A stretch of 34,819 bases of DNA from a virus (taxonomy: Duplodnaviria; Heunggongvirae; Uroviricota; Caudoviricetes), in IMG/VR virus record IMGVR_UViG_2693429713_000015; one strand, 5' to 3'. Positions 1,374 through 26,609 of the stretch are shown one piece after another. Within the stretch, counting starts at the first letter, position 1, and every line of letters starts with the position of its first letter. The notes beneath the pieces were generated by a model. That model was not told the origin of the DNA and ran no database searches. It saw nothing but the letters and a program-made list of their open reading frames with translations. A program made the translations under genes and the position numbers.

Positions 1374-1763
1374 TTACTCTTTTTTCTCCGTATCTGCATC
1401 GGGTTCATCAGCAAATAGCTTGCCCTGCATCCGATCCAGTTCTTCTTTTCTTACCCGCTTAACCACGCTGTAGACCCACTGAAGCGAAACACCAAATTTG
1501 CGGGCCAGTTCGTGGTGGTTGCGTCCGTTAAACTCCCTGAAGATTTCCCGGTCGCGCTGACTGACCTTCCATACCATGCCCATCGGGAAATAAACGTTTT
1601 GCCCGCCCCAGACCTGCATCATTCGGTTCGCGACGGCCTGACCAATCTGGTCGGCAACTTCGGGCTCAATATCAATAATCTCGCGAACGGTCTCAGAGGT
1701 ATGCTGTGCCAGTTCCACCAGGAGTTCCGGCCCCTTACTTCGAAACTGATTCAGGTCGCTCAT
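1374..1763 (-). CDS. Mor/C-family transcriptional activator (middle/late gene activator)
   Basis: 129 aa; GGQNVYFPMG...REIFREFNGRNHHELARKFGVSLQWVYSVVKRVRKEE matches the Mor/C activator pattern; last gene of the leftward operon, as mor is in Mu. Confidence 0.75.
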   Translation of the reverse strand: MSDLNQFRSKGPELLVELAQHTSETVREIIDIEPEVADQIGQAVANRMMQVWGGQNVYFPMGMVWKVSQRDREIFREFNGRNHHELARKFGVSLQWVYSVVKRVRKEELDRMQGKLFADEPDADTEKKE

Positions 1764-3518: not shown

Positions 3519-3815
3519 TTACTCGTTCGTGTAAATCACGCCCAGTCGTGCAGCCAGACGTTCCAGTTTTTTCTGTTTGTGGAAGTCAATCAGCCGGTCC
3601 ATCCCCTGAAGGCGCAATTGCTCTGTCATGATTTCCACGTCTGCCAGCTCTGCCGCGAGGTCGCTTTCGCTGCCCTGTCCGTTCAGATTGCGGGCAGCAC
3701 TGGCCGCCAGTTCAGCGGCCTCTTCTGTCAGTTTCAGGGCCTGTGCGTCCGGCCCGAAACGCTGCAGGGCCAGACGGTAGAGGGCGGTGCGGGTGAGTAT
3801 GGTGTTCCGTGTCAT
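3519..3815 (-). CDS. MazG-like nucleotide pyrophosphohydrolase-fold protein (98 aa), tentative
   Basis: Contains KLTEEAAELAASA ... DLAAELADVEIMTEQL ... KQKKLERLAARLG, matching the EExxE / ExxD / KxxR arrangement of small MazG domains; eye-match only. Confidence 0.45.
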   Translation of the reverse strand: MTRNTILTRTALYRLALQRFGPDAQALKLTEEAAELAASAARNLNGQGSESDLAAELADVEIMTEQLRLQGMDRLIDFHKQKKLERLAARLGVIYTNE

Positions 3816-3824
3816 GCCGCGCCC

Positions 3825-4097
3825 TCAGTGCTTCCGGCTGACGGTGATGTGCAGGCCGCCTTCTGCAGTGGTTTCCATCCGGTACGGCACCTCATGCGCT
3901 GCCGTGTGGGTTAGTGTGTTCACCAGTACCTGCAGGGCAGCCGCCTTTCCGTTGGTCGCCACAATGGCCTGAGCGGTCATGCTGATTAGCGCCGTCAGGA
4001 CGTGCTTCACATCGGTGAGGTCGCGGCATTCACACTCGTTGACATAGTGTTCAACAAGGGTTCGGGTGCGCTGTCGTGCTTCCTGTGGGGTAATCAT
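3825..4097 (-). CDS. Hypothetical early protein (90 aa)
   Basis: ORF in the operon, overlapping the upstream gene by 4 nt; no recognisable motif. Confidence 0.45.
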   Translation of the reverse strand: MITPQEARQRTRTLVEHYVNECECRDLTDVKHVLTALISMTAQAIVATNGKAAALQVLVNTLTHTAAHEVPYRMETTAEGGLHITVSRKH

Positions 4098-5215: not shown

Positions 5216-6382
5216 TTAAACCCCTTTGACAACGTCAGCGTTGACCTGTGGAACCCCGATTTCAGCGGCCAGATTCATGGCGGCTATTACCAGGTTACTG
5301 ACGGCCAGCGGATACAGCAGGCTGACCATATTTTTACGATGACTTCCCGGATTGCTCAGGCGGGCACGTATGGCATCCACTGCGCTGGCGTCCATAATGT
5401 CCGTCAGTTGTTTACCGGCCCGTTGCAGTTTGAACGTCAGAAACTCTTCAAGGTTATTGTCCAGAGGCAGAAGTTCGACCACCTCACAGCGCTGAACGAC
5501 TTCACGGACTTCCATATTGCGTTCAGACAGTTTTGTCGCCAGTTCCGGCTGGCCAATCAGCACGATGGACAGCAGTTTTTTGAAACCGGACTCCAGCTCA
5601 AAAAAGCGTTTGAGGTGTTTCAGTGTCGGAATGGGCAGACTGTGGGCCTCCTCAATCACCAGAACGTGGCTGAACCCCGCCTGGCTGCTGTCTTTCAGGA
5701 CGCGATGCAACTGGCGAAAGCGGGCGTCCTGACTGCGTCTGATGCTTTCCAGTGGTGCGATGGTACTGATAATGGCTTCGGCAATCGCTGCTGCCTTCAG
5801 GGTTTTCCCTTTCACATCGTTGTCTTCCATAGCGATGATGTATGGCTCGATAACAATTACCGGCGCATTCTCGCGGTTGATACGTTCAGTCAGGTCGCGG
5901 CGCAGCGTGGATTTACCCGCACCGGACTCACCGATGACGGCCATAAACCCACCATGACGGGCTGTCTGGTACAACGCCTCACGCACGTAGCGAATATCCG
6001 GGGTGGTGAACACATCATCAGAACCCTGCATGGCTTCGTCGGCGAACGGGTCACGGAAAAGACCAAACGCTTTTTTGGTTGCTGGAAATAACACCTGTTT
6101 TTTGAGTAACATATTCTCTTCCTCACTGAGGCTCGTTTTATCTGTGGTACCCGCTGTACGGGGCGTGGCCGCGCCCTGTACAGCATCAAAACTCTTCGTT
6201 GTATCAATCCCCTGACTTTCCAGCCAGGACGCAAGACGCCGGCGCACTTCTCCGGGGCTGGTGCGGGGCCACGCGTTATGATTCACAATCTGGGCCAGCG
6301 TGGCCTCAGAAACATCGACAGCTCTCGCCACCACCGCCTGTGGAATACGGGCCTCTTTCAGTTGCTGCTTCAGTACCAGCAT
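5216..6382 (-). CDS. DNA transposition ATPase B (MuB-like, AAA+)
   Basis: Walker A GESGAGKST; N-terminal HTH-like segment; immediately downstream of the transposase; preferred start is ATG at 6382 with GAGGAGGG RBS (the ORF track's longer form starts at a GTG). Confidence 0.85.
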   Translation of the reverse strand: MLVLKQQLKEARIPQAVVARAVDVSEATLAQIVNHNAWPRTSPGEVRRRLASWLESQGIDTTKSFDAVQGAATPRTAGTTDKTSLSEEENMLLKKQVLFPATKKAFGLFRDPFADEAMQGSDDVFTTPDIRYVREALYQTARHGGFMAVIGESGAGKSTLRRDLTERINRENAPVIVIEPYIIAMEDNDVKGKTLKAAAIAEAIISTIAPLESIRRSQDARFRQLHRVLKDSSQAGFSHVLVIEEAHSLPIPTLKHLKRFFELESGFKKLLSIVLIGQPELATKLSERNMEVREVVQRCEVVELLPLDNNLEEFLTFKLQRAGKQLTDIMDASAVDAIRARLSNPGSHRKNMVSLLYPLAVSNLVIAAMNLAAEIGVPQVNADVVKGV

Positions 6383-8495: not shown

Positions 8496-9415
8496 TACTG
8501 CATATCCTCCGGTCGGTTGATTTCAGGTTCCGGTTCGGTCAGCCAGGCGGGGGCATCGTTACCCGATGGAGCGGCCTCAAGGTCAAACGTCTCACGTAAT
8601 GCATGAACACTGCGTTCAATCTGGCAGACCAGACCGGCCATGAAATCTCTGGGGGTATCGATCATGTTTTTGGTGCAGTATTCACACAGGGTCTCAAAAA
8701 CACTGGACAGCCGGACGGCGATAGCCGATTCGGCCTCAACCGCTAATGCCGTCACTTCCGCCCGCAATTTTTTCAGTTCTTCGTCTGGCGGCGGAGGTTG
8801 CAGGCGCGATTTCTTCTCCAGTTTTGTGGCCAGTTCGTTGATTTTTTCGTCCTTTCCGGCAAGCACCTGTTGCTGAGCTGCGTTGGTTTCGCGCGCTTCA
8901 CGCAGGGCGGCCTTCAGTTCGCGGCTGGTCATGCGATCAATATCATCAAGCGTTGCACCGGCGACGGTTCCACCATCAGCTAATGCGTCGAGTTCTTCGT
9001 CATCCAGAACCATCAGTTCATATAACTTGGTTTTTCCCAAAACGCTCAGCGCTGAGCGTTTTGGCTGTTCATCTCCATTGCCGAGAAATTTCACGCTGGC
9101 CTGCATCATGCGACGAGCTACCTGTGGTGCTAATCCGAGGTCGTTTTCCAGAATATTTGTGAAATCACCATGCGGTTCATTTTCTTTTAAGATGATCAGC
9201 CGCTTACCCGCTTCCAACATAGATTCAGCACTCTGCGCCATATAAAAACGTGCTTCGTGAACGATGCGTTCACGTTCATAAGGCAGTCCATCACCAAACT
9301 GCTGCATGATCTCCATGCGATGCTGTGTCATGGCATTCAGGCTGACGTTGAGATCATCCGACAGCGGTACATCGGCGTTCAGTTCAGTGTTAATCGGTGA
9401 TTTGGTACGTCCCAT
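8495..9415 (-). CDS. Hypothetical coiled-coil early protein (306 aa)
   Basis: Long ORF with an acidic/coiled-coil central region (ELKAALREARETNAAQQQVLAGKDEKINELATKLEKK); function unknown. Confidence 0.5.
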   Translation of the reverse strand: MGRTKSPINTELNADVPLSDDLNVSLNAMTQHRMEIMQQFGDGLPYERERIVHEARFYMAQSAESMLEAGKRLIILKENEPHGDFTNILENDLGLAPQVARRMMQASVKFLGNGDEQPKRSALSVLGKTKLYELMVLDDEELDALADGGTVAGATLDDIDRMTSRELKAALREARETNAAQQQVLAGKDEKINELATKLEKKSRLQPPPPDEELKKLRAEVTALAVEAESAIAVRLSSVFETLCEYCTKNMIDTPRDFMAGLVCQIERSVHALRETFDLEAAPSGNDAPAWLTEPEPEINRPEDMQ

Positions 9416-9425
9416 TGATTACTCC

Positions 9426-9740
9426 TTACAAACGACTACCTGAAATGACACGTTGGTTAATTTCGTTAATACGATCCTGTGCACGTGCCATCTCGTTACT
9501 GTGGGCCATGGCGATCTGCAGTAACTGGATGCCCGGTGCAAAACGTCCGTTCTCCAGTTTCAGAGCCAGCCCTTCTTCAATGAGGGTGTTGAGTGCCCGG
9601 TTGATGTTTGCCGGTGACTCGTGCAGTGCTGTCGCCAGTTCACCGTTAGAAATACCGTTCAGGGCATGACCGCGCAGCGCTTTGAGTACCCGGAGGATGC
9701 GACTGCCGGAGCTTGAAACATTCGTCTTACTCATCTGCAT
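9426..9740 (-). CDS. Winged-helix DNA-binding protein (104 aa), hypothetical
   Basis: N-terminal ILRVLKAL...GISNGELATAL...INRALNTLIEEGL resembles a winged-helix HTH. Confidence 0.45.
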   Translation of the reverse strand: MQMSKTNVSSSGSRILRVLKALRGHALNGISNGELATALHESPANINRALNTLIEEGLALKLENGRFAPGIQLLQIAMAHSNEMARAQDRINEINQRVISGSRL

Positions 9741-9786
9741 ACCTCTTTTGCGATATGTGATAACCTTTTACAAAGACTCAAAATAT

Positions 9787-9975
9787 TTAGGCCGCCTGAG
9801 CTGTTGATTTCAGTCCCAACTTCACGGCGATTTCATGGGATTTACCGTAACGGGCTTTGGTCTGCCCGTTGAGAACGCGGTATACCTCATTGCGGTTGTA
9901 GCCGTTTTCTTCTGCCCAGCGGGTGAAAGTGATCCCGCGCTGGCGGAAGAGAGCTTTGACTTGTTCTGCAGTCAT
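9787..9975 (-). CDS. Ner-like small DNA-binding protein (first early gene)
   Basis: 62 aa; AAGGAG RBS 6 nt before ATG at 9975; layout parallels Mu Ner; divergent from the repressor. Confidence 0.6.
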   Translation of the reverse strand: MTAEQVKALFRQRGITFTRWAEENGYNRNEVYRVLNGQTKARYGKSHEIAVKLGLKSTAQAA

Positions 9976-10022
9976 CGTTGTCTCCTTTGTTGATGCAATG
10001 ATGTTTGCCTTATATGTGTTAG

Positions 10023-10051
10023 ATTATTGCTCATAATTATGAGCATATCAA
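10023..10051 (-). promoter_or_regulatory. Putative early promoter Pe (minus strand)
   Basis: On the minus strand: -35 TTGATA (plus 10046-10051), 17-bp spacer, -10 AATAAT (plus 10023-10028), about 45 bp upstream of the Ner-like start. Confidence 0.5.
10029..10044. promoter_or_regulatory. Perfect 16-bp palindromic operator GCTCATAATTATGAGC
   Basis: Self-complementary 16-mer fills the spacer of the putative Pe; an extra half-site TTATGAGC recurs at 10067-10074 across the repressor start codon. Confidence 0.6.
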
Positions 10052-10068
10052 GATAGAGATTCACTTTT

Positions 10069-10425
10069 ATGAGCAAAGATATAGGAGAGCGCGTTATTTC
10101 TGTGAGGAAGAAAGCAGGGTTGAACCAGAGAGAATTTGCAGCTCGTTTAGGTATTTCTAATGGTGGTATCAGTCAGATTGAAAATGGAAAGGCGATGCCT
10201 GGAGGGGAGTTTCTGTTAAAGATGCATCAAGAGTTTAATGTTGATGTAAATTGGTTGCTCACTGGAATGAGCACAGATGGTATGACTAGAAACCAGAATC
10301 AAATTTCCCCAGAAAAACAAAAACTAATAGATACTTTTGACGACATGACACCAGACCAACAACGCTCATTTCTTGAGATTGGGCGATTCTATACTCAGCC
10401 AAAACCAGGAAAAATCGCAGGCTGA
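10069..10425 (+). CDS. XRE-family HTH repressor (c-repressor analogue)
   Basis: 118 aa; N-terminal HTH (LNQREFAARLGISNGGISQIENGK); divergent from the early operon; no peptidase domain. Confidence 0.8.
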   Translation: MSKDIGERVISVRKKAGLNQREFAARLGISNGGISQIENGKAMPGGEFLLKMHQEFNVDVNWLLTGMSTDGMTRNQNQISPEKQKLIDTFDDMTPDQQRSFLEIGRFYTQPKPGKIAG

Positions 10426-10510
10426 TACTGACCCGGACACAAAGGACAGGTGGTTGATCTGGATGCTTTCAGAAAACATCGCCAGTGACATAGTGGAAGT
10501 TGTTTGGTTT

Positions 10511-10543
10511 ACCGGAAAGCATTGTGCTTTCCGGTTTTGTTTC
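10511..10543 (+). terminator. Intrinsic terminator downstream of the repressor gene
   Basis: 10-bp stem accggaaagc / gctttccggt, loop attgt, followed by TTTGTTTC. Confidence 0.6.
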
Positions 10544-11306
10544 AGAAGTTGCAGATTAGCAGTTCACGGCGCGGCGTGGGTTTACCCGCCAGACTGTAGT
10601 TGATATTCACTGTCTGTATGTTCAGTCCAGTGAACACCTCGCGCATCTGCGGGATGTCGTTCACCGAAATTATCATTTTTCCTCTGATGCACCGGGCCAG
10701 CTCTGCCAGCCGCGAGTAGTTCCCTTCAGGAAAATCCACACCATAGCCTTCCGTACCCAGGTACGGTGGGTCGCAGTAGAACAGCGTGTGCGGACGATCA
10801 TAACGCTCAATGCACTGTTGCCAGTCCATGTGTTCTATGACTGTTCTGGAAAGCCGCAGGTGTGCCGCTGACAGTTCTTCTTCAATACGTAGCAGGTTGA
10901 AGCGTGGCGGGGATGTGGTGGAGGTACCGAAGCTGTGCTCTGCCACCTTGCCGCCAAACGCCTGCTTCTGAAGGTAGTAGAACCGTGCCGCACGCTGGAT
11001 ATCCGTCAGTGTTTCTTCCGGGGTGATCTGCAGCCATTTGTAGATCTGACGGCTGACCAGCGCCCATTTGAACTGGCGGACAAATTCTTCCAGGTGATGC
11101 TTTACCACCCGGTACAGATTCACCAGTTCACCGTTGATATCATTGATGACTTCGATCTTGCCGGGTGTCTTAAGAAAATAGAGCGCTGCTGCCCCACAAA
11201 ACGGCTCCACATAACATTCATGCGCCGGAAACAGCGGCAGAATGTGTTTTGCAAGGCGGCGTTTGCCACCAATCCACGGCACGATGGGTAATGTCTGCAT
11301 TTTCAT
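10542..11306 (-). CDS. Dam-family (D12 class) N6-adenine DNA methyltransferase
   Basis: DPPY catalytic motif; N-terminal VPWIGGKRRL AdoMet-binding-like motif; likely start is ATG at 11306 (MKMQTLP...) rather than the ORF-track start at 11396. Confidence 0.8.
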   Translation of the reverse strand: MKMQTLPIVPWIGGKRRLAKHILPLFPAHECYVEPFCGAAALYFLKTPGKIEVINDINGELVNLYRVVKHHLEEFVRQFKWALVSRQIYKWLQITPEETLTDIQRAARFYYLQKQAFGGKVAEHSFGTSTTSPPRFNLLRIEEELSAAHLRLSRTVIEHMDWQQCIERYDRPHTLFYCDPPYLGTEGYGVDFPEGNYSRLAELARCIRGKMIISVNDIPQMREVFTGLNIQTVNINYSLAGKPTPRRELLICNF

Positions 11307-11410
11307 AATCTGCAAGCCTTTTACAATTATTAAAAAATATGGCAGTCTGGTCAGGTCTCGCGAGACTGACTGAACCTTGGTCGGCTCACAGCGCATTCCT
11401 GTGGGGCGAT

Positions 11411-11450
11411 GACCAGCCCGGCTTTCGGGTGCCGGGCTGGTCGTTCTTTC
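11411..11450 (+). terminator. Plus-strand terminator-like hairpin with no obvious plus-strand gene upstream
   Basis: Perfect 12-bp stem gaccagcccggc / gccgggctggtc, 8-nt loop, followed by GTTCTTTC; the minus-strand flank is not U-rich. Confidence 0.4.
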
Positions 11451-11496
11451 ATGATGCGGCAGGGATGGCGGGATTTCTGTTAATGTGGTTTAGGGA

Positions 11497-11712
11497 TTAT
11501 CCGGGGCGATTTTCTGACCTTATCCGGTCCAGGGCATAAGTAATACCTTCTGCAAAAACAGAAGTATCAAACTGCTTTTGTATTCCCTGAAAATGAAAAG
11601 CGGCACGACAGACACTCAGTTCTCCGCGGTATAACCGGATAATATCTTCCAGAACATTGTTCACTGCTTCAGCACGGCGCTGATGTTCTGTTAACGTTAA
11701 TCGGGGATTCAT
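11497..11712 (-). CDS. Hypothetical protein (71 aa)
   Basis: AAGGAG RBS 6 nt upstream of ATG at 11712; predicted helical, no recognised motif. Confidence 0.45.
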   Translation of the reverse strand: MNPRLTLTEHQRRAEAVNNVLEDIIRLYRGELSVCRAAFHFQGIQKQFDTSVFAEGITYALDRIRSENRPG

Positions 11713-11713
11713 G

Positions 11714-12115
11714 ATGCACTCCTTAAATGATGATTTTTATGTACTCACCGGCAAAATATTCTGCCGATTACTGAACACGCATCCGGCACCTCAGGTTTTG
11801 ATTTATTCTGGTTTTTTCGATATCCCGGACCAGGTTGATCACGACCAGAAAAAGTGCCGGTGTTTTATTGATACGCTGATATGGCTTCGGGATAACAGCT
11901 ATATTCGTTACTCTCAGTTGCTGGCTGTGGGAGCGGCTGATGTCGTCCTCACGGAAAAAACGCTCTGTCTGCTCAATGCCATGCCGACCTTTCTGCAGCC
12001 CCGGCCCGTACCATTTAAAGAGTCACTTCTGGATGCAGTAAAAACCGGTGAAAATGCAGTCATCGCTGAATGCGTATCCCGGATTATGCGTTACGTGTTT
12101 AATGAACGTAAGTGA
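11714..12115 (+). CDS. Hypothetical protein (about 133 aa), uncertain
   Basis: 405-nt ORF filling the gap between two minus-strand genes; weak GGGGA RBS; start is back-to-back with the 71-aa gene start and its 3' end overlaps the P-loop gene by 25 nt. Confidence 0.35.
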   Translation: MHSLNDDFYVLTGKIFCRLLNTHPAPQVLIYSGFFDIPDQVDHDQKKCRCFIDTLIWLRDNSYIRYSQLLAVGAADVVLTEKTLCLLNAMPTFLQPRPVPFKESLLDAVKTGENAVIAECVSRIMRYVFNERK

Positions 12116-12819
12116 GGTTTATCCGCTGTCTGCATAATCCCGATAGCCAGTGCGAGGGGAAGTAATTCCGGGGAAACTCTTTCAAACAGCGATGCCCATT
12201 CTCCTCTCGCCATCACTCTGTCCAGCCCGCCCTCCAGTTGCATTTCAGCAATCTTCCTGATTTCCCGGAACAACGCCGCTTTGATCTCTTCATGCTCAGC
12301 TTTATTTTCCGGTGTCAGAAGGTATTCGTCGAAGAACCGGGGAGGCTGGTTAATCGGGATGTGTTCCTGTTTGCCGTACTTCGGGGACGAACAACATTCT
12401 GTTGACTGACCAGTGAGTTTACGTAACTCCTTCATGAGCAGCTCCTGATCGTAAACTGTCATCAGTGCCGCAATGGTGGCATGCAGTGCATCGGGCAGTA
12501 TCCAGGGTTGCCGGCCCGTGGGGCATATAACATCCAGCAGCTCATTCGTCCGACAGATACGCTCCTCGCCGTATGACAACAGGCCCTGTCCCGTGTATTC
12601 CTCCAGCCTGATCACTGTGCCAGCCCGTGGTTTCTGCCATGTGCTCAGATCATCCCCACTCATACGGCGCTCACCGTCCACGTCTGCGGCGTCGACAATG
12701 ACGCTGTTTCCGAATTCCTGTTTCACCACTTCCTCTATTCGCGCCAGTACGTAACTTTTACCGCTGCCCACAGGACCGGACACGGTGACAGTGATGACCG
12801 GATTCAGTGTCTGCGTCAT
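12091..12819 (-). CDS. P-loop NTPase of unknown function (242 aa)
   Basis: Walker A GPVGSGKS at residues 15-22; possible Walker B VIVDAADVDG; GAGGAG RBS 8 nt upstream of ATG at 12819; C-terminal about 150 aa unrecognised. Confidence 0.6.
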   Translation of the reverse strand: MTQTLNPVITVTVSGPVGSGKSYVLARIEEVVKQEFGNSVIVDAADVDGERRMSGDDLSTWQKPRAGTVIRLEEYTGQGLLSYGEERICRTNELLDVICPTGRQPWILPDALHATIAALMTVYDQELLMKELRKLTGQSTECCSSPKYGKQEHIPINQPPRFFDEYLLTPENKAEHEEIKAALFREIRKIAEMQLEGGLDRVMARGEWASLFERVSPELLPLALAIGIMQTADKPHLRSLNT

Positions 12820-12949
12820 ATCGTATTCTCCTCTGTGAATAATTCATCGTTTATCCTGCACATCCCGTATCCCCGGCTCTCTTAACGCGCTTTAAAATCC
12901 TTCGCGCCCTGTATTTGTGATGCTGTCTCCACCAGATAAGGAGACACAC

Positions 12950-13300
12950 ATGAAAAAACTGAAAAAATTCATTCCCCCTGTTAAAAAACCTCGCCTCAGC
13001 GGCTGGCTGCTGACCTCAGTGCTGTTGCTGGGCACCATCGCTCTGGTCTCACCACAGCAGCTGCCTGTTGTGATCTACAAGCTGGCACTCATCACGCTGG
13101 CAGCAGTGCTGGGTTACTGGCTTGACCGTTCGCTCTTCCCCAAAGCCCGTCCCGGTCAGTACCTGAAACATGACGACAGGCTGATGGCTGAAGGGCGTTT
13201 CCCGGTACAGACCGGCCTTCACCTGGTGTTTTCTGCTGCGTTAATCCGCCGTGCACTGATTGTTGCAGCGGTCTGCCTGGCTGTTGCGATGGGGCTTTAA
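12950..13300 (+). CDS. Putative holin (three predicted TM segments)
   Basis: ATG at 12950 with AAGGAG RBS; three hydrophobic segments; immediately upstream of the endolysin. Confidence 0.55.
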   Translation: MKKLKKFIPPVKKPRLSGWLLTSVLLLGTIALVSPQQLPVVIYKLALITLAAVLGYWLDRSLFPKARPGQYLKHDDRLMAEGRFPVQTGLHLVFSAALIRRALIVAAVCLAVAMGL

Positions 13301-13302
13301 TC

Positions 13303-14043
13303 ATGAACTGGCCGCAGATCACCTGGATTGTATGCATGTCCCTGAAACTGGCTTTCGAAGCCTTTCGGGTCTTCATCAGAACCGAACGCCTGTCAGTCCG
13401 CGCCGGGACCTTTCTGGTTCATATGGCATGGGTATTCTTTGTCGCAATGTTGCTCTGGTGTGGCGGCTTTTTCAGCCAGGCATGCGCAGCACAACCTCCG
13501 CAGGCTGCGCTGCAGTATCGCGATGATGTGATCCGTAATGCCCGGCTTGAATGGGGACTGTCTGCGCCGGTGGCCGATTTCGCCGCGCAACTGCATCAGG
13601 AAAGCGGCTGGCGACCTGATGCGATCTCGCCGGCTGGCGCTCAGGGACTGGCGCAGTTCATGCCTGCCACTGCCGACTGGATAAGCCAGTTGATACCGAT
13701 GCTGAGCAGTCGTGAGCCGTTTAATCCGGCATGGGCTATCCGGGCGCTGGTCAGCTATGACCGCTGGCTGTGGCAGCGTGTCAGCGCCGCCAGTGACTGC
13801 GAGCGTATGGCCATGACACTGTCGGGCTATAACGGTGGTCTGGGCTGGGTACAACGGGACAGGCGGCTTGCATCACAGAAAGGTCTGGACAGCACCCGCT
13901 GGTTCGGACATGTCGCCACGGTGAATGCCGGACGCAATGCGGCCAGCTGGCGGGAGAACCGCCATTATCCGCAGCGCATCCTGCGCGAACTGGCACCGCG
14001 ATATCTCACATGGGGAGGCAGCAGTTGTGTGGCATCTGGTTAA
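13303..14043 (+). CDS. Endolysin, lytic transglycosylase (SLT domain) with N-terminal hydrophobic (possibly SAR) segment
   Basis: Motif ESGWRPDAISPAGAQGLAQFMP characteristic of SLT domains; hydrophobic stretch MAWVFFVAMLLWCGGFF precedes it; true start may be an internal Met. Confidence 0.8.
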   Translation: MNWPQITWIVCMSLKLAFEAFRVFIRTERLSVRAGTFLVHMAWVFFVAMLLWCGGFFSQACAAQPPQAALQYRDDVIRNARLEWGLSAPVADFAAQLHQESGWRPDAISPAGAQGLAQFMPATADWISQLIPMLSSREPFNPAWAIRALVSYDRWLWQRVSAASDCERMAMTLSGYNGGLGWVQRDRRLASQKGLDSTRWFGHVATVNAGRNAASWRENRHYPQRILRELAPRYLTWGGSSCVASG

Positions 14044-20297: not shown

Positions 20298-20421
20298 CCG
20301 CCTCCGGTTCACCGTATTGCTTTCCCTGTCCTTCTCCCCTGATGTTTTCTAAAGCAGATTAAAATCGCCGGGCCTGCATTTCTCACAAACTGTCTCCGAC
20401 AACATAACGCGGGACAGCAAA

Positions 20422-21537
20422 ATGTCAGCCATTCACATTTTTAAAGCCGGTACTCATACCGATATGCACGGCAAAAAACTGCCGTTCACGCCAGACGATC
20501 TTGCCGCCTGCGTGAAAGCCTATGACCCGTCCGTCCATGAAGCACCACTCGTGATTGGTCATCCCAGAACGGAAGACCCGGCGTGGGGCTGGGTGAAAGC
20601 CCTGTCGCTCAGCGGCGTCGATCTGATGGCAGAGCCTGCCCAGCTGGACCCGCAGTTTGCTGAGATGGTCACCGACGGACGATTCAAAAAAGTGTCCGCC
20701 TCTTTCTACCTCCCGGATTCACCGTCCAATCCGAAGCCCGGCGTGCTCTACCTGCGCCATGTGGGCTTTCTCGGGGCACAGCCACCTTCCGTCAAGGGGC
20801 TGAAACAGGTGTCCTTCAGTGAGCAGGAAGAAGGTGTGGTGGAGTTCGCCGACTGGCAGGCCATCACGAATGCCTCCCTGTGGGGAAAGCTGCGCGATTT
20901 TCTGATCGCCCGCTTCAGTCTGGACGAAGCAGAAAAAGTCCTGCCGGAATGGCAGCTCAACAATCTGCGCGAAGAGGCGTACCGCGACACACCGTCGCAG
21001 GATGCAGCAGGTGCGCAATTCAGTGAGACAGGCCAGGTGCCGTCTTCCGCAAGTAACGAGGAATCATCGATGACAAAAGAAGAGATTGAAGCCCTTCAGG
21101 AGGAGAACCGCCGCCTGAAGCAGCAGGCTGCTGATCGCGATGCGCGTGATGCACAGGTCAGACAGGAGCAACTGCATAAGGACAATGTGGCCTTTGCAGA
21201 AAAACTGGTCGCAGAGGGCCGTCTGGCTCCCCGCGCCTCCTCCGTGGTGGTTGCCCTGCTGGATGCCGTCGCCGGTGGCGACAAGCCGGTGGAGTTTGCT
21301 GAGGGGGAAAGCCGCACACCGCTGGCCACCGCCTTTCGTTCATTGCTCTCCGACGGGGAGCCGGTGATGAATTTCGCCGAACAGGCCACAAAAGAGCGTG
21401 TCGGCGACACGGTGAAGGTGGATGTGGCAGAGTTTGCGGAAGCCGATCCTGAGCGTCTGGCCCTGCATCAGAAAGCAGTGGCCCTGTCCAAAAAAGAAGG
21501 CATCAGCTATGAGGCTGCTGTCGCACGCTGCCTGTAA
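20422..21537 (+). CDS. Head protease/scaffold (Mu I-like)
   Basis: 371 aa; N-terminal domain plus Glu/Ala-rich coiled-coil C-terminal half; immediately upstream of the major capsid gene. Confidence 0.75.
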   Translation: MSAIHIFKAGTHTDMHGKKLPFTPDDLAACVKAYDPSVHEAPLVIGHPRTEDPAWGWVKALSLSGVDLMAEPAQLDPQFAEMVTDGRFKKVSASFYLPDSPSNPKPGVLYLRHVGFLGAQPPSVKGLKQVSFSEQEEGVVEFADWQAITNASLWGKLRDFLIARFSLDEAEKVLPEWQLNNLREEAYRDTPSQDAAGAQFSETGQVPSSASNEESSMTKEEIEALQEENRRLKQQAADRDARDAQVRQEQLHKDNVAFAEKLVAEGRLAPRASSVVVALLDAVAGGDKPVEFAEGESRTPLATAFRSLLSDGEPVMNFAEQATKERVGDTVKVDVAEFAEADPERLALHQKAVALSKKEGISYEAAVARCL

Positions 21538-26239: not shown

Positions 26240-26336
26240 CATCACAGGGGCTCCGGCCCCTTCTTCTTAATCTCCTTTAATATCCGTCACGCGCTTCTCC
26301 CGACATACTGCCCTGAACTTACACAGGAGCACAATC

Positions 26337-26609
26337 ATGTCACAGACCCCATCCGATACTTTTAAATTGTCTTATCCCTTCACCACTGCTGCAGGCACCA
26401 GAATTGAGCAGGTTGAACTGAAACGCCTGACGGTAAAAGACCTGAAGCAGGTGCGCAAAATCAGCAAAAACCCGGCAGACTGGGACGAACCGCTGATTGC
26501 CCGCAGTACTGGTCTTCTCCCGGAAGATCTCGACAATATGGATCTGGCTGATTACCTGCAGTTACAGAAACGATTTCAGCTCATCACGGGGATGGGTGAG
26601 AGCAACTAG
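26337..26609 (+). CDS. Tail assembly chaperone (P2 gpE-like)
   Basis: 90 aa; ACAGGAG RBS; sits just upstream of the tape measure gene with an overlapping extension frame. Confidence 0.65.
   Translation: MSQTPSDTFKLSYPFTTAAGTRIEQVELKRLTVKDLKQVRKISKNPADWDEPLIARSTGLLPEDLDNMDLADYLQLQKRFQLITGMGESN

What the first reader, a model, noticed from the sequence alone, without database searches (positions are those of the whole stretch)
10426..12949. Accessory island between the repressor and the lysis cassette: Dam methyltransferase, two small ORFs and an uncharacterised P-loop NTPase
This 2.5-kb block is the only stretch of the prophage not accounted for by Mu-type early functions or virion/lysis genes. 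The P-loop gene, the 71-aa gene and the Dam gene all point leftwards, away from the late operon, and the first two have strong RBSs, so they are probably real and expressed independently of lytic growth. Such cargo slots in prophages often hold exclusion, defence or DNA-modification modules. Whether the methyltransferase and the NTPase act together is pure inference.
Basis: partly seen in the sequence, partly recalled or inferred. Interest (0 to 1): 0.7.

Follow-up and report, generated by a model that had tools for sequence, protein, structure and literature searches.

The report
Variable cargo slot in Mu-like prophage
The 2.5-kb block is a real, swappable cargo slot of a common E. coli BcepMu-type prophage. 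It holds an ordinary orphan Dam methylase, an unusual interleaved antisense gene cassette of unknown function, and a mosaic protein whose "P-loop NTPase" is only a 75-residue Walker-A mini-domain.

Summary
Four conserved genes lie between the repressor and the holin of a BcepMu-type transposable prophage. The window is 100% identical to Escherichia phage PhiKM, and the same block is present in 493 of 5,426 complete E. coli genomes.

Related prophages carry different genes between the same flanks, so this is a true accessory slot. The four genes are not one system:
- **Dam.** It is an intact orphan D12-class methyltransferase, common in Mu-like phages. It occurs without the P-loop gene, and the P-loop gene occurs without it.
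- **The cassette.** The protein's C-terminal module travels with the 134-aa and 71-aa genes as a syntenic unit.
- **The start overlap.** The 134-aa gene sits antisense between its neighbours, and its start codon overlaps the 71-aa gene's start head-to-head (CATG). The same geometry appears in 43 of 43 P2-like phages, inside their cos-proximal defence hotspot.

No known defence family matches any of the three unknown proteins. Their function is unknown; a conflict or regulatory role is inferred, not shown.

The parts
10069..10425 (+). Left flank: 118-aa HTH_3/CI-type repressor-like protein. It is not annotated in the PhiKM GenBank record.
   Evidence: Pfam HTH_3 E 4.6e-15; PHROG transcriptional regulator/repressor families; annotated in RefSeq.
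10511..10535 (+). Terminator-like hairpin with a T-tract, after the repressor gene and just past the 3' end of Dam.
   Evidence: Consensus scan: 11-pair stem followed by TTTGTTT. Function not tested.
10542..11306 (-). Orphan Dam-family (D12 class) N6-adenine DNA methyltransferase, 254 aa. Motif I (FCGAAA) and motif IV (DPPY) are intact.
   Evidence: PF02086 E 6e-29; TIGR00571 score 116.6 against a cutoff of 114.85; phrog_56 E 1.5e-100; motifs read from the sequence; dN/dS 0.04-0.10; homologues at 60-66% identity in B3, MuM16-1, phiE125, KS9 and other temperate phages.
11326..11354 (-). Promoter-like site upstream of Dam (CTGACC-17-AATAAT). A diverging promoter-like site lies at 11300-11327 (+).
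   Evidence: Consensus match only, 9 of 12 positions. Not tested.
11411..11442 (.). GC-rich hairpin between the 71-aa gene and Dam. In two related loci the aligned part of the stem is kept while the loop differs.
   Evidence: Folds at -36.2 kcal/mol (+ strand) and -28.7 kcal/mol (- strand). Stem conserved and loop variable in L016 and L021, whose extracted sequence ends inside the 3' arm.
11497..11712 (-). 71-aa protein (phrog_4490), function unknown. It is the last gene of the leftward run before Dam. Its start codon overlaps that of the 134-aa gene head-to-head (CATG).
   Evidence: phrog_4490 E 7e-53, full length; 73-aa homologue in the same position in the Serratia-like locus L052; present in 499 of 5,426 E. 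coli genomes; retained when the 134-aa gene is deleted.
11711..12115 (+). 134-aa protein (phrog_2266), embedded antisense between the 242-aa and 71-aa genes. It overlaps the former by 25 nt at the 3' ends and the latter by the CATG start. A winged-helix-like sequence pattern is my inference.
   Evidence: phrog_2266 E 2.6e-44; 53% identical homologue in Serratia; 143-aa homologues at ~30% identity in P2-like phages; 43 of 43 P2-like loci keep the CATG head-to-head overlap with a small gene; deleted cleanly in L016 and L021.
12094..12372 (-). C-terminal module W of the 242-aa protein (about aa 150-242). It co-occurs with the 134-aa and 71-aa genes.
   Evidence: It is a stand-alone 102-aa gene in the same position in L052 (BLASTP 2e-11, 46% identity over 54 aa; phrog_3787 positions 176-230). 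Genome counts: 503 (W), 492 (134-aa), 499 (71-aa). P-loop variants without W (141, 151, 158 and 291 aa) have no 71-aa or 134-aa gene nearby.
12412..12510 (-). [not shown]
   Evidence: It lies at the C-terminus of P0037, P0039 and P0062. It is also the core of the stand-alone 108-aa protein P0074.
12592..12819 (-). N-terminal ~76-aa Walker-A mini-domain of the 242-aa protein: strand, GPVGSGKS, helix, short strand, a loop holding conserved E50 and W61, then a strand.
12882..12930 (+). Late-promoter-like motif for the lysis operon (TTAAAATC-N23-CTGTCTCC), back-to-back with the 242-aa gene.
   Evidence: The same two boxes at the same 31-nt offset occur at 20359-20397 before another late operon. 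A looser copy lies at 26276-26315. A Mor/C-type late activator gene lies at 1374-1763 (-). Function inferred.
12950..13300 (+). Right flank: holin, the first gene of the lysis/late operon.
   Evidence: PF13272 E 1e-41; phrog_1528 holin.

Best explanation
The block is a recombination-prone cargo slot at the early/late boundary of a BcepMu-type transposable prophage. It is assembled from modules that move independently, not from one system.

1. **Dam.** This is an orphan m6A methyltransferase of a lineage widespread in Mu-like and other temperate phages. It most likely methylates phage DNA, and host DNA in lysogens, so that progeny escape restriction. That makes it the functional counterpart of Mu mom (role inferred).

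2. **A three-gene cassette.** It comprises the C-terminal module W of the 242-aa protein, the 134-aa protein and the 71-aa protein. The 134-aa gene lies antisense inside the leftward run (242-aa gene, then 71-aa gene, then Dam).
   - What the sequence shows: any transcript that carries the 71-aa ribosome-binding site must cover the 5' end of the 134-aa gene in antisense, and the reverse also holds.
   - What I infer: the two sides are expressed in a mutually exclusive way. The 134-aa winged-helix-like protein would be made in one state. The 71-aa protein, made by read-through in the other state, would act as its antagonist or partner.

3. **The Walker-A mini-domain.** The first ~75 residues of the 242-aa protein form a phage-specific minimal domain, fused here to shuffled short modules. 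It probably binds a phosphate-bearing ligand. It is not a canonical P-loop NTPase.

The overall role is accessory: inter-phage or host conflict, or regulation. It is not replication or morphogenesis.
For: **Identity and spread**
- The window is 100% identical to phage PhiKM, classified as Bcepmuvirus.
- The block covers at least 80% of the query in 493 of 5,426 complete E. coli genomes.

**Slot variability between conserved flanks**
-.

**Independence of the modules**
- Dam occurs without the P-loop gene in L006 and KP12.
- The P-loop gene occurs without Dam in L004, L023-L028 and L030.
- The P-loop N-domain is in 570 genomes, against about 500 for W, the 134-aa gene and the 71-aa gene.

**Dam**
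- Domain and motifs are intact and under strong purifying selection.
- Its homologue in phage B3 sits behind a Com-like regulator. Homologues in several other transposable phages lie at the genome end.

**Cassette**
- Locus L052 keeps W-only gene / 134-aa homologue / 73-aa phrog_4490 gene / Dam in the same order and with the same overlaps, although it lacks the P-loop domain.
- The CATG head-to-head overlap is present in 43 of 43 P2-like loci.
- Those loci lie between gpQ and gpA, which is the published P2 defence hotspot (PMC9122126).
- In P2-like phages the small gene is followed by a strong terminator, and no internal consensus promoter is found. This fits read-through expression.

**Mini-domain**
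-.
Against: - No expression data exist. The promoter and terminator calls are consensus matches close to the numbers expected by chance.
- The winged-helix reading of the 134-aa protein rests on my reading of its sequence pattern and on a depositor's HHpred note for phage Midge.
- The small partners in the two phage families show no detectable homology (hhalign probability 0.1%). The shared geometry could therefore be convergent, or the small ORF could matter as a DNA/RNA element and not as a protein.
- The 325-bp deletion of the 134-aa gene in L016 and L021 shows the cassette is dispensable.
- Dam's target sequence is unknown.
Confidence: 0.55

Rival explanations
1. The 242-aa protein, the 134-aa protein and the 71-aa protein together form a new anti-phage defence or superinfection-exclusion system. 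The lysogen would express it, and the 71-aa protein would act as the prophage's own antidote on induction.
For: - The cassette sits in a variable cargo slot.
- The 134-aa family also sits in the P2 gpQ-gpA hotspot, where many cargo genes are defensive (PMC9122126).
- In a follow-up study, 6 of 8 P4 satellites chosen at random for unknown-function genes at their defence loci protected against phages (PMC13586616).
- Loss events seen so far remove the 134-aa gene and keep the 71-aa gene; the reverse was not seen. This is what an effector/antidote pair would predict.
Against: - No PADLOC model matches any of the three proteins beyond Walker-A noise.
- No enzymatic effector domain was found in any of them.
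- The mini-domain also occurs in phage contigs that look lytic. That argues for a phage-side role, not a host-protective one.
- No phenotype data exist.
Confidence: 0.25
2. The 134-aa and 71-aa genes are a small regulatory switch. It would set expression of Dam, or of neighbouring cargo, according to the lysogenic or lytic state, and would have no direct role in conflict.
For: - The interleaved antisense geometry is conserved.
- Back-to-back promoter-like sites lie in the Dam/71-aa spacer.
- A conserved hairpin lies between the 71-aa gene and Dam.
- The phage Midge annotators called the homologue a putative transcriptional regulator.
Against: - In P2-like phages the pair occurs with no Dam and beside unrelated cargo, or beside none.
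- No DNA-binding domain is detected by Pfam or PDB searches.
Confidence: 0.15
3. The Walker-A mini-domain protein serves the phage as a host-takeover or counter-defence factor, for example as a non-hydrolysing binder of nucleotides or nucleotide signals.
For: - Stand-alone 70-90-aa versions sit in small-gene clusters of phage contigs. One lies about 4.5 kb from an Acb2/Tad1-like gene.
- The Walker-A residues are the most conserved feature, while the usual catalytic acid is not conserved.
- Mosaic fusion to short modules is typical of fast-evolving conflict proteins (general knowledge).
Against: - The evidence is purely contextual.
- The Acb2-like neighbour is several genes away.
- No ligand or target is known.
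- Some family members have GKN in place of GKS/T.
Confidence: 0.12
4. Dam and the P-loop protein work together as a restriction-modification-like or BREX-like self/non-self system.
For: They lie close together on the same strand in this window. A methyltransferase model from the two-gene PD-Lambda-5 system gives a weak hit to Dam (E 5.8e-16).
Against: - Each gene occurs without the other in relatives.
- The best PADLOC hit for Dam is a generic type II methyltransferase model (E 6e-112).
- No nuclease or large ATPase is present.
- The P-loop part is a 75-aa mini-domain.
Confidence: 0.03
5. The three unknown ORFs are decaying remnants with no function.
For: - Constraint on the 71-aa gene is relaxed (dN/dS 0.34-0.59 on few substitutions).
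- The 134-aa gene has been lost by deletion in some lineages.
- Truncated P-loop variants of 141-158 aa are common.
Against: - All frames are intact in about 500 genomes.
- dN/dS is below 1.
- Protein-level conservation reaches down to 30-54% identity with length and overlaps preserved.
Confidence: 0.05

Closest known systems
Phage-encoded orphan Dam-family methyltransferases (for example Pseudomonas phage B3 ORF48 and Burkholderia phage phiE125 gp27), and functionally the Mu mom modification gene
   Same: D12-class domain with DPPY and FxGxA motifs. 60-66% identity to the methyltransferases of B3, phiE125 and KS9. No partner endonuclease. Carried by transposable temperate phages.
   Different: - It lies at the repressor/lysis boundary, not at the genome end.
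- No Com-like translational activator lies upstream.
- It is not the E. coli Dam orthologue (NF008152 score 67 against a cutoff of 441).
- Its target sequence is unknown.
- Mom itself is a different enzyme family.
Cos-proximal defence/cargo hotspot of P2-like phages (gpQ-gpA, the old/tin locus; Rousset et al. 2022, PMC9122126)
   Same: Conserved flanks with swappable cargo. The 134-aa family (phrog_2266), with its head-to-head small partner, is found in both places.
   Different: - The phage family, the flanks and the neighbouring genes are all different.
- The hotspot here abuts the immunity region and the late promoter, not cos.
- None of the cargo seen in this slot matches a validated defence system.
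P-loop NTPases of the SIMIBI class (MinD/ParA/Mrp, UreG/HypB)
   Same: The strand-GxxGxGKS-helix-strand start, including a local 'SVIVDAAD' stretch that resembles the MinD/ParA beta-2 (my reading). The weak structural and profile hits with the highest identity are Cfd1, FlhG and UreG.
   Different: - Only about 45-55 residues align.
- D43 is not conserved.
- There is no Walker B, no switch regions and no five- to seven-stranded core.
- The family domain ends at about residue 75.
Excludon-type and IS10 pIN/pOUT-type overlapping antisense gene arrangements
   Same: The two genes' transcripts must overlap in antisense across translation start sites. This predicts mutual interference (read from the sequence).
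   Different: - Both partners here encode conserved proteins.
- The start codons themselves overlap.
- No transcript mapping exists.
- The resemblance is architectural only.

Membership tests
Dam / D12-class N6-adenine DNA methyltransferase | Full-length match to PF02086 / TIGR00571 above the curated cutoffs | tested here: met
   PF02086: 102 bits against a cutoff of 22, covering profile positions 1-248 of 253. TIGR00571: 116.6 against 114.85, which is only just above.
Dam / D12-class N6-adenine DNA methyltransferase | AdoMet-binding motif I (FxGxG-like) and catalytic motif IV (DPPY) | tested here: met
   The string FCGAAA is found at 0-based index 35 and DPPY at index 178 of the 254-aa protein.
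Dam / D12-class N6-adenine DNA methyltransferase | GATC target specificity | not testable with these tools
   It needs a methylome or DpnI/MboI digests. It is not the E. coli Dam equivalog (NF008152: 67 bits against 441).
Type II restriction-modification system | A cognate restriction endonuclease next to the methyltransferase | tested here: not met
   None of the neighbouring proteins matches a nuclease family in Pfam, NCBIfam or PADLOC. Dam occurs with other neighbours in relatives.
Mu mom/com-type modification module | A small zinc-finger Com-like translational activator overlapping the start of the modification gene | tested here: not met
   No Cys4 ORF is present in 11290-11520 on either strand. 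Phage B3 does have one in front of its Dam homologue.
P-loop NTPase | Walker A motif GxxxxGK[ST] | tested here: met
   GPVGSGKS at residues 15-22. G20 and K21 are invariant and S22 is at least 90% conserved across 24 diverse homologues. A subgroup has GKN.
P-loop NTPase | Conserved Walker B acidic residue at the end of a hydrophobic strand | tested here: not met
   D43, after 'SVIV', is replaced by E, S, C, G, V and others in homologues. The only conserved acid nearby is E50, which lies in a loop.
P-loop NTPase | Three-layer alpha/beta core with a parallel sheet of at least five strands | tested here: not met
   [not shown]
Known anti-phage defence systems (PADLOC-DB v2.0) | A significant match of a component protein to a system model | tested here: not met
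   The 71-aa and 134-aa proteins have no hits at E up to 1. The 242-aa protein gives only Walker-A-level hits (best E 0.003).
Prophage accessory (moron/cargo) hotspot | Conserved flanking genes with different gene content between them in related elements | tested here: met
   At least six different contents were seen between the repressor side and the holin in BcepMu-type prophages.
Prophage accessory (moron/cargo) hotspot | The genes are dispensable for the phage life cycle | tested here: inconclusive
   Natural variants lack each gene. KP12 and PhiKM are deposited as phage isolates. No deletion experiment has been done.
Type II toxin-antitoxin pair | Two co-transcribed adjacent genes, with the antitoxin indispensable when the toxin is present | tested here: inconclusive
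   The genes are divergent, not an operon. Loss of the 134-aa gene alone is tolerated, and no case of the 71-aa gene lost alone was seen (492 against 499 genomes). Toxicity was not tested.
DUF2513 / winged-helix regulators (for the 134-aa protein) | A significant match to the Pfam family or to a solved winged-helix structure | tested here: not met
   Six family members, including the one UniRef names DUF2513, give no such Pfam hit. The PDB profile search gives no hits at E up to 10.

The most novel reading that the evidence does not exclude
The antisense-embedded 134-aa gene, whose start codon overlaps that of a small opposite-strand gene (with the W module in BcepMu-type phages), is a previously undescribed mobile cassette. 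It would occupy the cargo hotspots of two unrelated temperate-phage families. It would work as a state-dependent (lysogen versus induced) conflict device, in which overlapping antisense transcription makes the effector and its antagonist mutually exclusive.
Probability: 0.2. Interest if true: 0.7.

Novelty: new member of a known kind. Interest (0 to 1): 0.45.

Why it matters
- **Prevalence.** The prophage is common. Part of the block is found in 635 of 5,426 complete E. coli genomes, including an isolate labelled O25b:H4-ST131. Its cargo is therefore part of the everyday accessory genome of clinical E. coli.
- **Experimental design.** The slot holds separable modules. The obvious experiment, deleting the whole block, should be split into single-gene deletions.
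- **Annotation.** The "P-loop NTPase", "ABC transporter ATPase" and "KAP family NTPase" labels that databases give to fragments of this protein rest on a Walker-A motif alone.
- **A candidate for hotspot screens.** The interleaved 134-aa/small-gene cassette recurs in the P2 defence hotspot with a strictly conserved start-codon overlap. It is a concrete, cheap-to-test candidate, and a possible natural example of protein-coding antisense gene control.

Tried and rejected
- **AF2 on the full-length 242-aa protein** with its 12 close homologues gave mean pLDDT 45.5. The model was unusable and was not searched.
The last structure job went to the P-loop N-domain, so neither the 134-aa nor the 71-aa protein was modelled.
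- **The search for related loci with the broad N-domain alignment** failed for lack of a conserved stretch. A narrower alignment worked. In genome contigs it returned only two loci, and one (L008, a 345-aa protein) matches only across the Walker-A region and is probably unrelated.
- **Rfam scan of 9500-13500** found no known RNA family.
- **Homology between the 71-aa family and the 63-64-aa P2-type partners** was rejected (hhalign probability 0.1%).
- **A Com-like regulator in front of Dam** was not found.
- **A late activator hidden in the block** was rejected, because the Mor/C-type gene is at 1374-1763.
- **Literature searches** for PhiKM, BcepMu-type E. coli prophage defence, ST131 Mu-like prophage and DUF2513 returned nothing on these genes.
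- **Hits P0042 and P0077** in the representative search are repeat-protein artefacts.
- **Greedy ORF calling in the high-GC distant loci L033-L037** was too noisy to give context.


Full report
**What the window is**

The window is essentially Escherichia phage PhiKM (PQ738613.1, genus Bcepmuvirus, from a uropathogenic E. coli). It is 100% identical over 9400-13400. The layout is BcepMu-like:
- The early operon runs leftwards from about 9975. It holds a Ner-like protein, an IclR-type HTH protein, a DUF3102 protein, the transposase, a MuB-like protein, Gam and a Mor/C-type late activator at 1374-1763.
- The lysis and virion genes run rightwards from 12950 (holin, SLT endolysin and onwards).

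The same 3.4-kb stretch is found at 80% coverage or more in 493 of 5,426 complete E. coli genomes. Some part of it is found in 635 genomes, including an isolate labelled O25b:H4-ST131.

**The observation**

- Dam, 10542-11306 (-)
- 71-aa gene, 11497-11712 (-)
- 134-aa gene, 11711-12115 (+)
- 242-aa gene, 12091-12819 (-)

The ribosome-binding sites are as described. Each ORF matches a full-length PHROG family, three of them of unknown function, and RefSeq annotates all four. dN/dS against diverged alleles is 0.04-0.10 for Dam, 0.20-0.34 for the 242-aa gene and 0.34-0.59 for the 71-aa gene. The 134-aa protein has full-length relatives at 53% identity in Serratia and about 30% in P2-like phages. 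These are genes.

**Is it a cargo slot? Yes.**

Between the same flanks, relatives carry other content:
- An HTH protein, a 328-aa protein, a 193-aa protein and a 158-aa P-loop variant (L004).
- The same first two genes plus a 203-aa protein and a DUF2441 protein (L005).
- An NA37 nucleoid protein, a 401-aa protein with a weak KwaA-like hit, and Dam (L006).
- Two unknown proteins, Dam and a DUF2441 protein (Klebsiella phage KP12).
- Lipoproteins and other unknown proteins (L029, L030).

None of this cargo matches a validated defence system in PADLOC v2. The statement that this block is the only unexplained stretch of the prophage is too strong, because several early genes are also of unknown function.

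**Dam**

The protein is a complete D12-class methyltransferase. It matches PF02086 and sits just above the TIGR00571 cutoff, and it has FCGAAA and DPPY motifs. No endonuclease lies beside it.

Homologues at 60-66% identity are carried by many temperate phages:
- Transposable phages such as B3, UMP151, Bise, Shewanella MuM16-1, Stenotrophomonas phiSHP3 and Curvibacter TJ1.
- Burkholderia phages such as phiE125, phi1026b and KS9.

In several transposable phages the gene lies at the genome end. In B3 it sits mid-genome, directly behind a Com-like regulator. No Com-like ORF is present here.

It is therefore an ordinary phage orphan methyltransferase. Protection of progeny DNA from restriction is the established role of such enzymes (general knowledge). 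Its target sequence is unknown, and it is not the E. coli Dam orthologue.

**The "P-loop NTPase"**

An exhaustive search of 1.8 billion representative proteins found only 60 relatives, and they share only the first ~75 residues. Beyond that point the proteins (70-364 aa) are mosaics of short modules in different orders.

In a 24-sequence alignment of the N-domain:
- G20 and K21 are invariant.
- G15, G18, S22, E50 and W61 are at least 90% conserved.
- The candidate Walker-B aspartate D43 is not conserved.

A profile search of the PDB matches P-loop proteins only over positions ~10-48, which is strand, loop and helix.

With 20 diverse sequences, AlphaFold gave mean pLDDT 75.8 for residues 1-140. 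Fold searches with that model gave:
- Foldseek against the PDB: nothing.
- BFVD: one 82-aa viral protein at 35% identity.

Stand-alone 70-90-aa versions lie in phage contigs among small unknown genes. One lies about 4.5 kb from an Acb2/Tad1-like gene.

The Walker-A motif is clearly under selection, so phosphate or nucleotide binding is plausible. The protein nevertheless fails two of the three defining features of a P-loop NTPase that I could test.

In BcepMu-type prophages this gene, when present, always sits divergent from the holin. This holds even where the holin is only 65-69% identical (L029, L030, L032). It lies next to a motif (TTAAAATC-N23-CTGTCTCC) that recurs with identical spacing before another late operon.

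**The cassette**

The C-terminal ~90 residues of the 242-aa protein (module W) are a separate 102-aa gene in the Serratia-like BcepMu prophage L052. There the order and overlaps are the same as in the window: W gene (-), 134-aa homologue (+, 54% identity), a 73-aa phrog_4490 gene (-) and Dam (-). No P-loop domain is present at all.

In E. coli genomes W (503), the 134-aa gene (492) and the 71-aa gene (499) have nearly the same distribution. The P-loop N-domain is wider, at 570 genomes. P-loop variants that lack W have neither small gene nearby.

The 134-aa gene is antisense to its neighbours. Its 3' end overlaps the 242-aa gene by 25 nt. Its ATG overlaps the 71-aa gene's ATG on the other strand (CATG), so each gene's ribosome-binding site lies inside the other's first codons.

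The same head-to-head CATG overlap, with a 63-64-aa partner (86 aa in one locus), is present in 43 of 43 P2-like loci that carry a 134-aa homologue. The partner belongs to phrog_2454 in the one P2-like example scanned, and shows no detectable homology to the 71-aa family. In the loci where both markers were found, the pair lies between gpQ and gpA. That interval is the published cos-proximal defence hotspot of P2-like phages (PMC9122126). The pair sits next to varying cargo there (a Fic protein, a nucleotidyltransferase-like protein with an HTH protein, or nothing). In the two P2-like phages scanned, the small gene is followed by a strong terminator.

Two related loci (L016, L021) have a clean 325-bp deletion. 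It removes the 134-aa gene from codon 19 onwards and leaves the 242-aa gene and the 71-aa gene 53 nt apart, like an operon.

**Mechanism: what is shown and what is inferred**

Shown:
- The modules are independent of one another.
- The overlapping, interleaved geometry exists and is conserved across two phage families.
- The 134-aa gene is dispensable.

Inferred:
- The 71-aa gene is expressed by read-through from the 242-aa gene across the antisense 134-aa gene. Expression of the two strands would then be mutually exclusive.
- The 134-aa protein, which has a winged-helix-like sequence pattern (my reading, plus a depositor's HHpred note), would be the state-specific effector or regulator, and the 71-aa protein its antagonist.

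I hold the overall picture (cargo slot, separable modules, orphan Dam, non-canonical mini P-loop) at about 0.55. I hold the specific antisense-switch model at about 0.2.

Rival readings are a new defence or exclusion system (0.25), a purely regulatory switch (0.15), a phage-side counter-defence role for the mini-domain (0.12), a joint Dam-NTPase system (0.03) and decay (0.05).

**Comparison with known systems, and novelty**

Dam is a known kind of gene. The slot is a new instance of a known phenomenon, namely prophage cargo hotspots. I found no paper describing this slot or these three proteins. The interleaved cassette and the minimal Walker-A domain are uncharacterised and fit no family I could test. 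Without a phenotype they do not justify more than "new member of a known kind".

Interest is moderate. The element is very common in clinical E. coli, and the cassette is a cheap, well-defined candidate for a functional test.

Noticed in passing
window 12882-12930, 20357-20397 and 26276-26315: Late-promoter-like motif. TTAAAATC and CTGTCTCC occur at an identical 31-nt offset upstream of the holin operon and of the operon that starts at 20422. A looser copy precedes the gene at 26337. They are probably binding and start sites for the Mor/C-type activator encoded at 1374-1763 (-).
   Followed up: partly
window 11411-11442: An 11-bp GC-rich stem between the 71-aa gene and Dam (-36 kcal/mol with its flanks on the + strand). 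In L016 and L021 the aligned part of the stem is kept while the loop differs; their extracted sequence ends inside the 3' arm. A T-rich tail is present only on the + strand, so its role (terminator, attenuator or RNA-stability element) is unclear.
   Followed up: partly
window about 12360 (codons 153/154 of the 242-aa gene): The window's allele lacks 15 bp (five codons) that the majority 247-aa allele carries within the run 'IPVNTIPVNQ'. This looks like slippage in a short tandem repeat. The reading frame is preserved.
   Followed up: partly
L001 (PQ738613.1) 3670-4026 and 5312-5716; window 10366-10491: The PhiKM GenBank record does not annotate the 118-aa repressor or the 134-aa gene. It annotates instead a 41-aa ORF on the opposite strand that overlaps the repressor's 3' end. 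RefSeq E. coli genomes annotate both genes.
   Followed up: yes
L004, L005, L006, L002, L029, L030 (same slot in relatives): Alternative cargo in the slot includes DUF2441 proteins, an NA37 nucleoid-associated protein followed by a 401-aa protein with a weak KwaA-like hit (E 8e-5), two predicted lipoproteins, and 328-, 203- and 193-aa proteins of unknown function. None is a recognised defence system in PADLOC v2.
   Followed up: partly
L053-L096 (P2-like loci), for example L087 4533-5570 and L068 4559-5792: In P2-like phages the 143-aa/63-aa pair sits on the gpQ (cos) side of the hotspot. Between it and DinI/gpA lies variable cargo: a Fic protein, or a nucleotidyltransferase-like protein with an HTH protein. 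In some phages the pair appears to be the only non-backbone content detected there.
   Followed up: partly
L112 180-596 and 5001-5270; L109 845-1090: Stand-alone mini-P-loop genes lie in 73-79-kb phage-like contigs among small unknown genes. The neighbourhoods include an Acb2/Tad1-like hairpin-domain gene about 4.5 kb away, DUF7484 proteins, an NAD-dependent ligase and a TubZ-like protein.
   Followed up: no
whole window: GATC occurs 90 times against about 133 expected from base composition (ratio 0.68). This is a mild depletion for a phage that carries its own Dam-family enzyme in a Dam-positive host. Its significance was not assessed.
   Followed up: no
window 11300-11354: Two promoter-like consensus matches lie in the Dam/71-aa spacer and point in opposite directions: one on the + strand at 11300-11327 and one on the - strand at 11354-11326. 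The rightward one would transcribe through the hairpin and across the 71-aa gene in antisense, towards the 134-aa gene. The number of such matches is close to the chance expectation.
   Followed up: no
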